Source of the DNA: Escherichia coli
GTDB taxonomy: Bacteria; Pseudomonadota; Gammaproteobacteria; Enterobacterales; Enterobacteriaceae
Assembly: GCF_002854065.1 (NCBI RefSeq)
Contig: NZ_CP024147.1
DNA length: 64,000 bases
Strand: one strand, 5' to 3'
Position numbers: made by a program. Below, one piece after another: positions 52,801-58,800 of this stretch; the stretch's first letter is position 1; the number at the start of each line of letters is the position of its first letter.

Positions 52801-55800
52801 TTGCCACGAGAGTAAAAGTCTGCGCTTTGCTACCCGCCTGCGGGATGGAGTTGGCGACTGTAACCGGGTTGCCCTGGAAATGAACGGTTTGTGACATGAT
52901 TATCTTTCCTGTTTACATATAGTTAACGTCACACCTAGTTTATGCTAACTGTCAATAACACAGCAAACGCTATTTGCGCTTAATCCGCAGACCACTGCGA
53001 CAACAAGGAGTAAAGATGAGAACCGTTAAGGTATTTGAGGAAGCCTGGCCCTTACATACCCCGTTTGTGATTGCCCGGGGAAGTCGCAGTGAAGCGCGCG
53101 TGGTGGTGGTTGAACTGGAAGAAGAGGGTATTAAAGGCACCGGCGAATGCACGCCGTATCCGCGTTATGGAGAAAGTGATGCCTCGGTAATGGCGCAAAT
53201 TATGAGCGTCGTACCGCAATTAGAGAAAGGGCTGACACGGGAGGAGTTGCAAAAAATTCTCCCTGCCGGCGCAGCACGTAATGCGCTGGATTGTGCATTG
53301 TGGGATCTGGCCGCGCGAAAACAGCAGCAATCGCTGGCTGATTTGATCGGCATAACGCTTCCCGAGACAGTTATCACTGCACAGACGGTTGTCATCGGTA
53401 CGCCTGATCAGATGGCCAATAGTGCATCAACACTCTGGCAGGCCGGCGCGAAATTACTGAAAGTGAAGCTGGATAACCATCTTATCAGTGAGCGGATGGT
53501 GGCAATTCGCACAGCTGTGCCCGATGCCACGCTGATCGTTGATGCAAATGAATCCTGGCGTGCAGAAGGGTTGGCGGCACGTTGCCAGCTATTGGCGGAT
53601 TTAGGCGTTGCGATGCTTGAACAACCGCTTCCTGCGCAGGACGATGCGGCGCTGGAGAATTTTATTCATCCGTTGCCGATTTGTGCTGATGAAAGTTGTC
53701 ATACTCGTAGCAATCTGAAGGCGCTGAAAGGGCGCTATGAGATGGTTAATATTAAGCTCGATAAAACCGGTGGTCTGACGGAAGCGCTGGCGCTGGCAAC
53801 TGAAGCGCGTGCACAAGGTTTTCGTCTGATGCTGGGCTGCATGTTGTGTACCTCTCGTGCCATTAGCGCCGCTTTACCGCTGGTGCCGCAGGTCAGTTTC
53901 GCCGATCTTGACGGACCGACCTGGCTGGCGGTAGATGTGGAACCGGCGCTTCAGTTCACGACGGGCGAATTGCATCTTTAGGATGCCAGCGCAGCAAGTT
54001 TGCCATCGCAAAGAGATATTTTTCGCTGGCTTCGTCGGAGGAGATGGGCGGAAACTCTGCGGTGATGCAATGCAAGTTGAGATCTGCACACCAACTGCCG
54101 AAAGAGCCAGGCGTTTCATAACCGACGCTGGTTACCAGAGGCAATTCAAACGCCTGGGCCAGCCATTCGCCTAATTCGCTGTGTCTGGGATCTTCAATAC
54201 AAGCCAGTGGATCATGGAATGAGACCACCCAGGCAGGTTGAATGCGGTGTATAAGCTGGCACAGCGCCTGGGTTTCAGGTTCGGAGCCAGGTTTGTCACC
54301 TGTCAGTAATACGACATCACGTTCTTCAGCGGCGCTGTTCCAGCGATAAACCGTTTCACCTTCCTTCCAGTTCGCCGCCGGAAAGTTTCTGTTTAAATCC
54401 ACACCATTAGCATTGGCCCGTAACCCCAGCTGGCAGCCGTCAGGATTCACACACAGCACCACATGATGGCGGCGCAAAGAAGGTGTCAAAGTCCGCAGAG
54501 CACAGGAGAGCGTGACGACCGAAGAGTTTTCATCACCGTGAGTGCCAGCCAGAATCAAACCACTTTCGCGACTGGCTGCAGGGGCCGGAAACCAGATTAA
54601 CGGCGCGCCCAATAATGAACGTCCGTAATGTTCTGTTCCGGGCGGAAATGCGCCGCGTTCGGCGCGTGGGCGGGTTACGGTCATGATCGTCTCTGGTTCA
54701 GGAAGTATTACAGGCAGTGTTGTGCAAATTTTGCGGATTATCAAATCCTTTTCTTCAACGCTATGTCATCGATCTTGTATCACTTTTTTGCCGGAAGTTG
54801 TTTGTATTTTCATTGATGTGCAGATATTAGAATTGTCGTAATGTTATATACATGGCGTATTTTATTCTTACTGGTTCTACACATGTTAATCGCATCTGAT
54901 TGATCAGTTCACCTTAATAAGTTTAATAAATCGTACTGCACATAGTACAGTACGATGGTAGCTATATAATTGATTTACATGAAGAATGGCTTATCGCCAT
55001 CAGTCCCGGGTTGATTGATGCCTATATTCTCACCAATGTGTTTCTCAGGTTTATCGATGATATCTGTGATTAATGCGGCGACACTCTTACGCGATACGAT
55101 CGTACCTTTGAATAGTTCATTGCGTGAGGTAATCTCGTAATCAATAATATCTTCATCAGTCAGCCAGGCAGGGCGAAGAATTGTATAATCCAGTCCAGAA
55201 GCCTCAATTGCATCCGCAGCCCTGCGGAATGGTTTTAGGGGCTCACCAATAACTGCATTATTCCATTCGCCAAATTTTCCTGGAACTTCATCATAAATGC
55301 CGAGGGAAAGAACAAAGATCAGACGTTTAACATCACAGGCTTTCATCGCAGCGATCACTGAATTTGCCTGAATATCTAAATCTTCCCCCGTAAGGTTGGC
55401 ATACACAATATCCTGTCCCTGCATGGCCTGCTTCAGTGCTGCATGATTCAGTACATCCCCCATAATAATCTGGCTATTAGTTGGATAGGGTTTGTGTATT
55501 TTTGCTGGCTGACGAGCAAATAAAGTTTGTTTAATGGTTTGTTTATCTGCCAGTTGATTAATCACATGGCGGGCTATCTGACCGCCAGCACCAAGAATGA
55601 GTACATTTTTCATAATATTTCTCATGAAACTTATCCCAGATGGGTGTTGAGAAAAGGAATAACTTTTTCCAGCGCCTCCTGAACTGCTTCCGGTTTGTCA
55701 TACAGTTCATAATGTGAGAAATCGGGTAATGAAACTAACTGACGATCCTGCGAAACCATCGCCCGGCCATAGACTTCCAGTCCATCACGATAAGCACCGA

Positions 55801-58800
55801 AGGCACCGACTTTTTCACCAACTACTACCATCACCGGCTGAGTCAGTAACACTTCAGTAAATGCGAAGGCATCCCAGGCCAGCGTTTTCTGTGCATGTGA
55901 GAACAACATTTTTGTCGCACCTCCCGGTTGTTGCCCGCGTGGTGTTTTATAGTAGTCAGTTGCTTCATAAACATCGCGTTCGGTCAGTCCATGGGCTTTT
56001 GCTGCATCCAGGCTGGCGGGAAGTAATTCGTTGATCTGTAATTCTCCACCACGAGCCTCTTTGGTTCGTTGCGACGCCATTGCATTCAATGCGCCAATCG
56101 GATCGTAATTGCTGAAACCTTCCCGAAAAAGACGCCCGATATTAACACCCGTAATACTCACTACAGCTTTAATTCGTTTTTCTGTCAGCGCGGCATTAAT
56201 GGCATAGCCACCCCCCCCCACACACACCCAGCACGCCAATGCGTTCAGCATCAACATATGGCAGAGTTACTGCATAATCGATAACACGGCTAATATCCTC
56301 TACGCGCTGTGTCGGATCTTCTATCCAACGAGGCTCCCCACCAGATTCTCCCTGGAAACTGGCGTCATAAGCGAGAACGACATAGCCTTTTTCAGCCAAT
56401 GCCTTGCCATAGATATTGCCAGACGTCTGCTCCTTACAACTGCCAAAAGGATGGACGCTGATAATCGCCGGATACTGTTTTGACTCATCAAAATTTGGTG
56501 GAAACTGAATATTGGCAGCAATATGCCAGGCCATATCACTATTGCGGATTTGAATATGTTTCATTACAGAGTTTCCTCAAAGAACGGAGCTAATACTGAA
56601 ATTGCTTCAGCCACATAGGCTTTGCCGTCATAAAGATCCATATGGTTTGCGCCTTCAACAATGTGATAGCGTTTATCCTGGCTTGATGCCCGATCGTACA
56701 GGTCGTCACTCATCCATTTGCTCCCTGCCTGGCTGCCCGCCACAATCTGCGTCGGCTGAGTCAGGTACACTTCCGCCATATGGTAAGCATCATAGGTAAT
56801 AATCTGGTTAAGGCTGCGCAAAGTAGCGTAACCCGGTGCTGTTGGATACTGCGCGCGAGGGGTGTGGTAATACTCCCAGGCCTGACGCAGTTCTTCGTTC
56901 GGCGCATCGGACTCCTTCATTGGTGCCAGTGGCATAATGGCGTATTCTCCGCTGCTAATATCGCTGGTTCTGGCGTTTGAACCCGCGTCAACGTATGGCA
57001 GGGCATCAATAGATTTCACATTGTTTTCCCAACCATTACGGAACATCGAACCAATATTGACCGCACTAACGGTACCGATGGCCTTGATGCGGCGATCCTG
57101 AATTGCAGCATTGGCTGTATATCCTGCACCGGCACAAATTCCCATCGCACCAATTCGGGTATTGTCGACATAAGAAAGCGTTGTCAGGTAATCAATCACG
57201 GCACTGACGTCTTCAGTACGAATGTATGGGTTTTCTAACTGACGCGGCTCGCCGCCACTTTCACCCTGATAAGATGCGTCATAAGCAATAGTGACAAATC
57301 CCTTTTCCGCCAGTTTTTCGGCATAGGTCCCGGCCGTTTGTTCTTTAACGCCCCCACCTGGGTGAGATACCACAATTGCCGGATGCTGACGGGTTTCATC
57401 AAATTTTGGAGGGAAATAGATCACTGCAGACAAAGAGATGGTTGGATTATTGCTGTTAGTGAAGCTGACTTTATTATTCATCATTCCGTTCCTCATGGAG
57501 TTGTCGGTTCGTTTTAACGGTTGGTGATATCACTATAGATATTGATCATTAAGTTGATTAGACCCAAAATCATGATTAGACCTATCATTTAAATGATTAA
57601 TAGATTGTATGGAGATACTGAATGAAGCGTGAAGAAATCGCTGATCTGATGGCGTTTGTCGTCGTTGCAGAGGAGCGTAGCTTCACTCGCGCAGCAGCCC
57701 GCCTGAGCATGGCGCAGTCAGCTTTAAGCCAGATAGTGCGCCGTATAGAAGAACGATTGGGATTGCGGCTTCTGACGCGAACCACGCGCAGTGTTGTACC
57801 CACTGAAGCGGGCGAGCATCTTTTGTCTGTTCTTGGCCCTATGCTGCATGACATAGATTCTGCCCTGGCATCCCTGAGCGATCTGCAGAACCGCCCATCC
57901 GGGACAATACGTATTACTACTGTAGAACATGCAGCAAAAACGATATTGTTACCAGCCATGCGCACATTCCTGAAATCACACCCTGAAATTGATATTCAGC
58001 TTATCATTGATTATGGTTTGACTGATGTCGTTTCTGAGCGTTTTGATGCAGGCGTCCGTCTGGGTGGGGAGATGGATAAAGATATGATCGCCATTCGAAT
58101 CGGGCCAGATATACCAATGGCTATTGTTGGCTCACCGGATTATTTTTCCCGCCGAAGTGTTCCAACGTCAGTGTCACAATTAATAGATCATCAGGCAGTT
58201 AATTTGTATCTTCCCACATCGGGTACAGCAAATCGCTGGAGATTAATACGCGGTGGACGCGAAGTTCGTGTTCGCATGGAAGGTCAGCTTTTACTGAATA
58301 CGATAGACCTGATCATTGATGCTGCAATTGATGGGCATGGATTGGCGTATCTACCTTATGATCAGGTTGAGCGGGCTATTAAAGAAAAAAAACTGATACG
58401 TGTTTTGGATAAATTCACACCAGATTTACCCGGTTATCACCTGTACTATCCACATCGTCGACATGCTGGCTCGGCATTCTCATTATTTATAGATAGGCTG
58501 AAGTATAAAGGTGCTGTTTAGCACTACTTGCTGATACATTAATTTAATTCTTCTCTTAACGTATTCTCAGTTCCTTTCAACGTTTTGGTTATTTTTTATT
58601 CTTCGTACAATGGCGACAGATGCTGATTATGATACCGAAAACTGGTTTGAACGTGCGAAGCCCGAACGTAGTGTTCGGTGTTCTATGTGCTTTGCCGCAT
58701 TTTGGCGTCTATTATTTACACTAAATCTGATTTAATATATTGATACATAAAACATTTTATGCTTCCTGTGTCACTTTTTTGATGGAAGTTGTTTGCATTT

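What the first reader, a model, noticed from the sequence alone, without database searches (positions are those of the whole stretch)
54975..57496. PgrR-controlled operon appears more complete than its K-12 counterpart
Divergent from the LysR regulator pgrR there are tandem alpha/beta-hydrolase paralogues (ycjY and the frameshifted ymjD-like gene) followed by an intact 216-aa NAD(P)-binding protein in the ymjC position. K-12 (from memory) annotates ymjD and ymjC as pseudogene remnants. The intact NAD(P)-binding gene and near-intact second hydrolase suggest the ancestral operon encoded a multi-enzyme pathway, possibly linked to murein-peptide recycling with mpaA, ycjG and mppA nearby.
Basis: partly seen in the sequence, partly recalled or inferred. 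Interest (0 to 1): 0.4.

Follow-up and report, generated by a model that had tools for sequence, protein, structure and literature searches.

The report
Acquired hydrolase-reductase cassette, decaying in E. coli
The window carries the fullest E. coli version of a four-gene cassette (regulator pgrR, two cysteine hydrolases, one NAD(P)H reductase) that was inserted between two cell-wall-peptide genes; K-12 has cut it down by two deletions, so its position beside murein genes is probably an accident of insertion and not a shared pathway.

Summary
On the minus strand, divergent from pgrR, lie ycjY (56564-57484), a second hydrolase paralogue (55631-56564) and an intact NmrA-like reductase (54975-55613, or to 55625). 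The second hydrolase is split by one extra G in a poly-G run.

K-12 ymjD and ymjC are remnants of two deletions, window 55642-56509 and 54811-55475.

This variation is already annotated in RefSeq. The full-length reductase has a solved structure (3qvo), as does YcjY (5xb6).

Among 5,426 complete E. coli genomes:
- about 1,282 carry the full form
- about 1,656 lack only hydrolase 2
- about 2,293 carry the K-12 double deletion
- 174 have an empty site

The murein interpretation is not supported. In about 75 other Enterobacteriaceae, including five other Escherichia lineages, mppA and mpaA are directly adjacent. The 3.96-kb cassette is an insert flanked by 30-37-bp direct repeats. The same LysR/hydrolase/hydrolase/reductase module occurs in Citrobacter, Serratia, Salmonella/Klebsiella, Pseudomonas, Halomonas and Stenotrophomonas. 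There it has no murein genes nearby, usually has extra reductases, and often sits in mobile or variable regions.

It is most likely a small-molecule (lactone, ester or quinone) detoxification module. Interest is low to moderate.

The parts
53956..54684 (-). mpaA (murein tripeptide amidase). This is a core-genome flank and not part of the cassette.
   Evidence: Annotated in the near-identical CUWW06. It is directly adjacent to mppA in about 75 other species.
54773..54809 (.). Left copy of the direct repeat that flanks the insert (30-nt core at 54780-54809).
   Evidence: the repeat finder family D2: 37 nt, 86% identical to 58764-58800, spacing 3991. The sequence is single-copy in empty-site genomes.
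54810..54903 (.). A 94-bp end of the insert with no match to cassettes of other genera. K-12 deletion 2 starts at 54811.
   Evidence: blastn homology to C. koseri stops at 54904.
54930..54956 (-). Hairpin of 12 bp followed by a U-rich tail, 19 nt after the reductase stop codon. It may be a weak terminator or an RNA-stabilising element. It is deleted in K-12.
   Evidence: strand folding centroid -16.2 kcal/mol, z -2.3. It is conserved with compensatory changes in Citrobacter and L093, where it lies between the SDR and adh_short genes. The consensus terminator scan did not call it.
54975..55613 (-). Intact NmrA-like atypical SDR (NAD(P)H-binding), 212 aa.
   Evidence: PF13460 at 184 bits, full length. 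PDB 3qvo matches over all 212 residues with 4 substitutions (E 6e-137). RefSeq names it 'SDR family oxidoreductase'.
55631..56564 (-). Second alpha/beta hydrolase (hyd2, the ymjD position). It is a pseudogene here because of a +1 frameshift.
   Evidence: Two ORFs. The repaired protein matches YcjY structure 5xb6 at E 1e-67.
56211..56219 (-). Poly-G run (G9) at the nucleophile-elbow codons G-V-C-G-G-G-G-Y. This is the site of the frameshift.
   Evidence: Census of exact matches: G8 in 80 genomes, G9 in 221, G10 in 83; most other genomes have the interrupted run GGGGGTGG.
56564..57484 (-). ycjY, first alpha/beta hydrolase, 306 aa, with Cys in a G-x-C-x-G motif.
   Evidence: PDB 5xb6 is deposited as YcjY.
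57485..57621 (.). Divergent ycjY/pgrR control region with repeated ATCA-N-TGAT motifs.
   Evidence: It is 86% conserved across E. coli, Citrobacter, L093 and Serratia, higher than the 77-79% of the cassette as a whole. Promoter-like hexamers were found on both strands.
57622..58521 (+). pgrR (ycjZ), the LysR-type regulator that belongs to the cassette.
   Evidence: HTH_1 and LysR_substrate domains. Orthologues 85-88% identical sit in the same divergent position in Citrobacter and Serratia.
58619..58711 (+). Fragment of a queH-like gene inside the insert's right end (58521-58770 has no match to other cassettes).
   Evidence: PGAP annotates a partial QueH pseudogene here in O157 and O111. The Pfam QueH match is weak: E 0.009, below cut-off.
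58764..58800 (.). Right copy of the flanking direct repeat.
58858..60471 (+). mppA (murein tripeptide binding protein). This is a core-genome flank.

Best explanation
Shown: window 54810-58770 is a 3.96-kb horizontally acquired cassette. It holds pgrR, transcribed divergently from ycjY, a second hydrolase (hyd2) and an NmrA-like reductase. It was inserted into the short mppA/mpaA intergenic region in the E. coli lineage and is now decaying. The window has the fullest E. coli form, except that hyd2 is knocked out by one extra G in a slippage-prone poly-G run. Other lineages first lost hyd2 by an in-frame 867-bp deletion (form B). A subset then lost the 3' 166 codons of the reductase, together with the downstream hairpin, by a 665-bp deletion; this is K-12 (form C).

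Inferred: PgrR is the cassette's own sensor-regulator, acting on the conserved divergent promoter region. The two paralogous Cys-His-Asp hydrolases, which resemble dienelactone hydrolase, open an ester, lactone or thioester bond in a small molecule. The reductase, which resembles biliverdin-IX-beta/flavin reductase, reduces a carbonyl or quinone product with NAD(P)H. In fuller clusters an adh_short reductase, flavodoxin-like proteins and an Old Yellow Enzyme finish the job. On this reading it is a xenobiotic or electrophile catabolism-detoxification module. Any PgrR control over mpaA would be a secondary result of the cassette landing upstream of mpaA.
For: Insertion:
- mppA and mpaA are directly adjacent in about 75 species-level genomes, including E. 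albertii, E. whittamii and three other Escherichia lineages.
- 174 E. coli genomes have the same empty site.
- Homology to empty sites ends at 54809 and resumes at 58764/58771, and a 30-37-nt direct repeat flanks the insert.

Autonomy of the cassette:
- A divergent LysR gene followed by hyd1, hyd2 and the NmrA-like SDR is found in C. koseri, S. marcescens, Salmonella/Klebsiella, P. aeruginosa (next to TrbI/VirB8/TrbL conjugation genes), Halomonas and Stenotrophomonas. A partly rearranged cluster with no LysR gene in the stretch examined is found in Burkholderia. None has M14 amidase, epimerase or peptide-binding genes nearby.
- Each hydrolase type is orthologous across genera (69-93% identity), while the two types are only about 42% identical to each other.
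- The control region is more conserved than the genes.

Decay series:
- The deletion-1 junction is identical in UPEC132 and K-12.
- Junction censuses give 3,949 genomes with deletion 1, 2,293 with deletion 2 and 1,282 with hyd2 present.
- In O55:H7 an ISEc20 element sits inside the poly-G run.

Chemistry:
- Cys117, His281 and several Asp residues are invariant.
- Pfam DLH, S15 and alpha/beta-hydrolase matches pass their cut-offs.
- The reductase's nearest relatives with a named activity are ChuY/ShuY and BLVRB/flavin reductase.
- Recurrent neighbours are OYE, adh_short and Flavodoxin_2/4.
Against: - No substrate is known for any of the three enzymes. The two closest structures (5xb6, 3qvo) carry no functional annotation in the PDB names.
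- K-12 literature assigns PgrR to peptidoglycan recycling, with ycjY-ymjDC-mpaA listed as one unit (table in PMC5934670).
- ycjY overexpression causes filamentation (PMC3614548).
- The insert has no integrase or transposase, so the insertion mechanism is unknown.
- GC content (45% against 47-52% in the flanks) separates the insert only weakly.
- The hairpin after the reductase also sits inside apparently continuous operons in Citrobacter. It may therefore not terminate transcription, and read-through into mpaA may occur in all forms.
Confidence: 0.7

Rival explanations
1. The pgrR-controlled genes are an ancestral multi-enzyme arm of murein-peptide recycling that works together with mpaA, ycjG and mppA, and K-12 has lost part of that pathway.
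For: The genes lie between mpaA and mppA. Published K-12 work names PgrR a peptidoglycan-recycling regulator and lists ycjY-ymjDC-mpaA as one unit. ycjY overexpression gives filaments. A later paper lists YcjY as 'putative peptidoglycan degradation'.
Against: The adjacency exists only in E. coli and arises from an insertion. Seven other taxa carry the cassette without any murein gene nearby. About 76% of E. coli genomes have lost one or both extra enzymes, or never had the cassette, while all keep mpaA and mppA. The recurrent partner genes are reductases and not peptidases.
Confidence: 0.1
2. The frameshift in the window is a homopolymer sequencing or assembly error, and the strain really has an intact three-gene operon.
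For: The nearest genome, CUWW06, differs in the 5-kb region only by G8 against G9 and one SNP. Run lengths of G8 to G11 are scattered even within the clonal O157:H7 serotype, a pattern that long-read homopolymer errors could also produce.
Against: G9 is the commonest state of the uninterrupted run (221 genomes, against 80 with G8). It is found across many independent projects, and PGAP records the gene as frameshifted.
Confidence: 0.25
3. The poly-G run is a contingency (phase-variation) switch that turns hydrolase 2 on and off in the O157/O145/O55 group.
For: A synonymous GGT-to-GGG change created an uninterrupted G8 in this haplotype only. G8, G9, G10 and G11 all occur among close relatives.
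Against: Most alleles are out of frame (304 against about 100). An IS element also disrupts the gene in O55:H7, and most of E. coli has deleted the gene. This fits neutral decay better than a maintained switch. Sequencing error is not excluded.
Confidence: 0.12
4. The cassette was ancestral at this site in Enterobacteriaceae and was precisely lost many times, through recombination between the direct repeats, outside E. coli.
For: Flanking direct repeats would allow precise excision. 174 E. coli genomes have a clean empty site.
Against: It would need dozens of independent precise losses across about 75 species with no remnant. Cassettes in Citrobacter, Serratia and Salmonella/Klebsiella sit at other loci.
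Confidence: 0.03

Closest known systems
E. coli K-12 ycjY-ymjD-ymjC(-mpaA) unit and its repressor PgrR (YcjZ); Shimada et al. 2013, as cited in PMC5934670 and PMC10505187
   Same: Same locus. ycjY and pgrR are 98-99% identical at protein level, and the control region differs from K-12 at one position.
   Different: The window keeps a full-length, though frameshifted, second hydrolase and a full 212-aa reductase. K-12 has 21-aa and 60-aa remnants and lacks the hairpin after the reductase.
PDB 3qvo, 'NmrA family protein', and relatives 3r6d/4ipt, ChuY/ShuY and BLVRB/flavin reductase
   Same: 3qvo matches the window's reductase over all 212 residues with 4 substitutions. The fold class is the atypical SDR, Pfam NAD_binding_10.
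   Different: No substrate is recorded for 3qvo. ChuY and BLVRB are distant (E 1e-6 to 1e-5), so they indicate a type of chemistry and not the same function.
PDB 5xb6 (YcjY) and 2hdw (P. aeruginosa PA2218); dienelactone-hydrolase-like alpha/beta hydrolases
   Same: Alpha/beta fold, with Cys in G-x-C-x-G and a C-terminal H-x-(D/E)-(L/I)-Y-D motif, conserved in both paralogues and in PA2218.
   Different: Function is unknown. The best named NCBIfam family, the UilS acyl-homoserine lactonases, scores 76-88 bits against a cut-off of 400, so neither protein is a member.
LysR / hydrolase / hydrolase / reductase clusters with adh_short, flavodoxin-like and Old Yellow Enzyme genes in Citrobacter, Salmonella/Klebsiella, Halomonas, Stenotrophomonas and Burkholderia
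   Same: Gene order and orthology of the first four genes in all but the Burkholderia cluster, which is rearranged and shows no LysR gene, and the divergent control region.
   Different: The E. coli copy is cut off about five codons into the adh_short gene and lacks all downstream reductases.

Membership tests
Alpha/beta hydrolase, dienelactone-hydrolase-like (Cys nucleophile) | Alpha/beta-hydrolase domain match above the Pfam cut-off | tested here: met
   DLH, Peptidase_S15, Hydrolase_4 and Abhydrolase_1 all pass their cut-offs for YcjY and for repaired hyd2.
Alpha/beta hydrolase, dienelactone-hydrolase-like (Cys nucleophile) | Nucleophile elbow G-x-C-x-G, with conserved His and acid residues | tested here: met
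   Cys117, His281, Asp261 and Asp232 are invariant in 8 sequences from 4 genera. Cys and His are also present in PA2218. Triad geometry was not examined.
Alpha/beta hydrolase, dienelactone-hydrolase-like (Cys nucleophile) | Intact reading frame in this window (hyd2) | tested here: not met
   A +1 G at 56211-56219 splits the gene. ycjY is intact.
UilS acyl-homoserine lactonase (NF047920) | Score at or above the curated cut-off of 400 bits | tested here: not met
   88 and 76 bits.
Atypical SDR / NmrA-like (PF13460 NAD_binding_10) | Full-length domain match and N-terminal Gly-rich dinucleotide motif | tested here: met
   184 bits over profile positions 1-184. The motif GAGGQIA lies at residues 8-14. 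The near-identical 3qvo is deposited as an NmrA family protein.
LysR-type transcriptional regulator (PgrR) | N-terminal HTH_1 plus LysR substrate-binding domain, divergent from the target operon | tested here: met
   The protein is 99% identical to K-12 PgrR.
Murein-peptide recycling gene set (mpaA, ycjG, mppA) | Conserved co-occurrence or co-location with murein-peptide genes across genomes | tested here: not met
   Co-location is seen only in E. coli, after an insertion. It is absent from 8 contexts in 7 other taxa.
Murein-peptide recycling gene set (mpaA, ycjG, mppA) | Enzyme activity on murein peptides, or PgrR response to a murein ligand | not testable with these tools
   This needs biochemistry. 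The primary paper, Shimada 2013, is not held in the library.
Genomic islet acquired by insertion | Empty site in relatives and flanking direct repeats | tested here: met
Genomic islet acquired by insertion | Own integrase, transposase or atypical composition | tested here: inconclusive
   The four genes fill the insert and none has a recombinase domain. GC is 45.1% against 46.9-51.9% in the flanks.
Phase-variable contingency locus | In-ORF homopolymer with length polymorphism among close relatives | tested here: met
   G8 to G11 occur within O157:H7, O145 and O55. Sequencing error is not excluded.
Phase-variable contingency locus | Reversible, high-frequency switching with a phenotype | not testable with these tools
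   This needs culture experiments.

The most novel reading that the evidence does not exclude
PgrR is not natively a peptidoglycan-recycling regulator. It is the cognate sensor of a widely travelling hydrolase/reductase detoxification cassette that landed upstream of mpaA in the E. coli ancestor. The K-12 'ycjY-ymjD-ymjC-mpaA operon' would then be a by-product of that insertion and of a later deletion that removed the reductase's 3' end and the hairpin after it. In the O157 group, the poly-G run at the hydrolase-2 active-site codons may additionally act as a slippage switch.
Probability: 0.4. Interest if true: 0.45.

Novelty: already known. Interest (0 to 1): 0.3.

Why it matters
K-12 is the reference for gene names and regulons. 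At this locus it is a doubly deleted minority-type allele (about 42% of complete genomes), and the name 'peptidoglycan recycling regulator' rests on it. If the block is a foreign cassette with its own regulator, experiments on PgrR, YcjY and the two orphan structures (5xb6, 3qvo) should look for lactone, ester or quinone-type substrates and should use a form A strain. Pan-genome association hits on 'ymjC' (for example PMC9602453) should be read as markers of these deletion alleles. The finding does not reveal a new kind of system.

Tried and rejected
- The consensus terminator scan found no minus-strand terminator after the reductase. Folding did show a 12-bp hairpin. Because the hairpin is conserved inside apparently continuous operons in Citrobacter, I lowered the claim that its loss in K-12 created the link to mpaA.
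- I considered UilS lactonase as a functional assignment and rejected membership, because the scores are far below the cut-off.
- The old 'cPHB polymerase' prediction for YcjY, based on GXCXG (PMC3709699), is noted. Nothing here supports it.
- Shimada 2013 and Choi 2016 could not be read, so the K-12 regulatory claims are second-hand.
- GC content was tried as evidence for foreign origin and is only weakly discriminating.
- I looked for sequence similarity between the insert boundary and the deletion-2 endpoint to explain why they coincide within 1 nt, and found none.
- No structure prediction was run, because near-identical or homologous solved structures exist.

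
Full report
**1. What is in the window**

The window is E. coli chromosome. A 5-kb query around the finding matches 5,418 of 5,426 complete E. coli genomes at 95% identity or more.

The minus strand carries these genes:
- mpaA, 53956-54684.
- A 216-aa ORF, 54975-55625. RefSeq annotates it as a 212-aa 'SDR family oxidoreductase' starting at 55613.
- Two overlapping ORFs, 55631-56257 and 56196-56564.
- ycjY, 56564-57484 (the longest ORF runs to 57496).

pgrR is divergent on the plus strand at 57622-58521, followed by mppA.

The two overlapping ORFs are one alpha/beta-hydrolase gene, here called hyd2. 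One extra G interrupts it: the window has G9 at 56211-56219. The almost identical strain CUWW06 has G8 and an annotated intact 310-aa protein.

**2. Comparison with K-12**

MG1655 lists ymjD (21 aa) and ymjC (60 aa) as small CDSs, not flagged as pseudogenes in this copy. Alignment and direct mapping show two separate deletions relative to the window.

- Deletion 1 is 55642-56509. It is 868 bp here and 867 bp in G8 alleles, so it removes 289 codons in frame. It leaves the first 18 codons of hyd2 joined to its last codons, which is ymjD.
- Deletion 2 is 54811-55475 (665 bp). It removes codons 47-212 of the reductase and 164 bp downstream, including a hairpin. What remains is ymjC.
- A 12-bp indel at 55614-55625 also separates the full form from the deleted forms. 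Because the extra upstream ATG lies in those 12 bp, 212 aa is the safer length for the reductase. The 3qvo construct also begins at MKNVL.

**3. Population picture**

Junction-specific searches of 5,426 complete genomes give the following.

| State | Genomes | Evidence |
|---|---|---|
| hyd2 region present (form A) | 1,282 | |
| Deletion-1 junction (forms B and C) | 3,949 | |
| Deletion-2 junction (form C) | 2,293 | |
| Form B, by subtraction (hyd2 lost, reductase intact) | about 1,656 | |
| Empty site, mpaA and mppA contiguous | 174 | |

Example strains:
- Form B includes UPEC132, ST131 and MP1.
- Form C includes K-12 and BL21.

The deletion-1 junction is the same in UPEC132 and K-12. The simplest history is therefore A to B to C.

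Within form A, most genomes have an interrupted run, GGGGGTGG. A synonymous T-to-G change made an uninterrupted G8 in one haplotype. Exact-match counts in that haplotype are G8 in 80 genomes, G9 in 221 and G10 in 83, with some G11. These are mostly O157:H7, O145 and O55:H7.

PGAP flags the G9 allele as 'frameshifted'. In O55:H7 DEC5E an IS110-family ISEc20 sits inside the same run. The window's frameshift is therefore a common allele. A homopolymer error in this particular assembly still cannot be excluded, because its nearest relative has G8.

**4. The block is an insertion**

A scan with MpaA returned 80 species-level loci. tblastn with nine local proteins shows tpx-ycjG-mpaA directly next to mppA, about 180 bp apart, with no pgrR, ycjY, hyd2 or reductase. 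This holds in:
- Citrobacter, Salmonella, Enterobacter, Klebsiella, Kluyvera, Leclercia, Lelliottia and other genera.
- E. albertii, E. whittamii and three further Escherichia lineages.

The only exception is Escherichia sp. E1V33. It has the K-12-type form at 96% nucleotide identity while its mpaA flank is only 87% identical, which looks like import by recombination.

Homology between the window and empty sites ends at 54809 and resumes at 58764/58771. The 30-nt sequence TCACTTTTTTGCCGGAAGTTGTTTG(T/C)ATTT is single-copy in empty sites. In the window it is present at both ends: 54780-54809 and 58771-58800, 27 of 30 identical. It is extendable to 37 nt at 86% identity.

The insert is 54810-58770, 3,961 bp. 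It has no integrase or transposase, and its GC content is 45.1%. How it was inserted is unknown.

One oddity remains: K-12's deletion 2 begins 1 nt inside the insert boundary. I found no sequence reason for this.

**5. The same cassette elsewhere**

Homologues of the reductase are common, with 5,287 hits. They are about 80-83% identical in other Enterobacterales and about 67-70% in Pseudomonas, Stenotrophomonas, Burkholderia and Halomonas.

Eight genomic contexts from seven taxa were examined. Seven contexts (six taxa) show a divergent LysR gene followed by hyd1 (YcjY type), hyd2 and the NmrA-like reductase. In the Burkholderia context no LysR gene was seen and hyd1 and hyd2 are not adjacent.
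- C. koseri, Salmonella/Klebsiella, Halomonas, Stenotrophomonas and Burkholderia add an adh_short reductase and an Old Yellow Enzyme. Halomonas and Stenotrophomonas also add flavodoxin-like proteins. P. aeruginosa adds a flavodoxin-like gene.
- No context has an M14 amidase, an L-Ala-D/L-Glu epimerase or a peptide-binding protein.
- Flanks differ between genomes and include conjugation genes (P. aeruginosa), replicase and AlpA genes (C. koseri) and Pycsar defence genes (L093, L094).

Nucleotide homology between the window and C. koseri runs from 54904 to 58520. It stops about five codons into the adh_short gene, so even the 'complete' E. coli operon is a truncated copy of a larger cluster.

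The ycjY/pgrR control region, with repeated ATCA-N-TGAT motifs, is 86% conserved from E. coli to Serratia. That is more than the cassette as a whole. It fits PgrR being the cassette's own regulator, which is an inference.

**6. What the proteins are**

- Hydrolases. YcjY and hyd2 match several alpha/beta-hydrolase families above cut-off. They also match the solved but functionally unannotated structures 5xb6 (YcjY) and 2hdw (PA2218).
  - Cys117 in G-x-C-x-G, His281 and conserved Asp residues are invariant in both paralogue types across four genera. This pattern is that of dienelactone-hydrolase-type Cys hydrolases (established knowledge).
  - The poly-G run encodes the glycines right after the nucleophile.
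  - The best named NCBIfam family, UilS lactonase, is far below its cut-off.
- Reductase. It is a full-length NAD_binding_10 protein. It differs from PDB 3qvo at 4 of 212 residues, and its distant relatives with a named activity are ChuY/ShuY and BLVRB/flavin reductase.

**7. Most likely mechanism**

The evolutionary account is shown by the evidence above: insertion followed by stepwise decay. The function is inferred.

- I take the block to be a LysR-controlled module that hydrolyses and then reduces a small lactone, ester or quinone-like compound.
- I put about 0.5 on this functional reading and about 0.1 on a dedicated murein-peptide role.
- Evidence for a murein role is limited to position in E. 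coli, second-hand K-12 regulon data and a filamentation phenotype on ycjY overexpression.
- The hairpin after the reductase is lost in K-12. However, it is also conserved inside apparently continuous operons in Citrobacter. I therefore do not claim that K-12's deletion alone created co-transcription with mpaA.

**8. Novelty and verdict**

The full-length genes are routinely annotated, two structures exist, and pan-genome studies already treat 'ymjC' as variable. The finding as stated is already known biology.

What this analysis adds is:
- The insertion boundaries and the flanking repeats.
- The nested deletion series, with genome counts.
- The poly-G hot spot.
- The argument that the murein context is incidental.

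Interest is low to moderate (0.3).

Noticed in passing
L096 2540-4000 (O55:H7 DEC5E); equivalent to window 56211-56219: An IS110-family ISEc20 element is inserted exactly inside the poly-G/C run of hydrolase 2, with six C on each side. The run may be a preferred target for this element.
   Followed up: partly
window 58619-58711: A short queH-like fragment lies between pgrR and the right direct repeat. PGAP annotates it as a partial pseudogene, and the Pfam QueH match is E 0.009. It may be a hitch-hiking piece of the donor context.
   Followed up: partly
L012 (Escherichia sp. E1V33) 7131-9876: This non-coli Escherichia carries the K-12-type deleted cassette at 96% identity to E. coli, while its adjacent mpaA side is only 87% identical. 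This suggests import of the pgrR-ycjY-mppA segment by recombination.
   Followed up: no
window 54811 against the insert boundary at 54810: K-12's second deletion starts one nucleotide inside the cassette boundary. No shared sequence explains the coincidence.
   Followed up: partly
L093 and L094 9068-10978: In Salmonella/Klebsiella the cassette lies beside Pycsar-type defence genes (cyclase with AGS_C, and PycTM), which marks a variable island.
   Followed up: no
H45, NZ_CP066032.1: A further allele covers only query positions 382-1819. It lacks window 54745-55126, that is the 3' end of the reductase and the region towards mpaA, yet keeps hydrolase 2. This is an independent deletion.
   Followed up: no
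window 57485-57621: The ycjY/pgrR intergenic region is more conserved across genera (86%) than the flanking genes. It holds three ATCA-N(4-6)-TGAT-type repeats, which are candidate PgrR boxes.
   Followed up: partly
window 53956-53981: The convergent genes ycjG and mpaA overlap by 26 nt at their 3' ends. The same overlap is annotated in K-12 and other strains.
   Followed up: no
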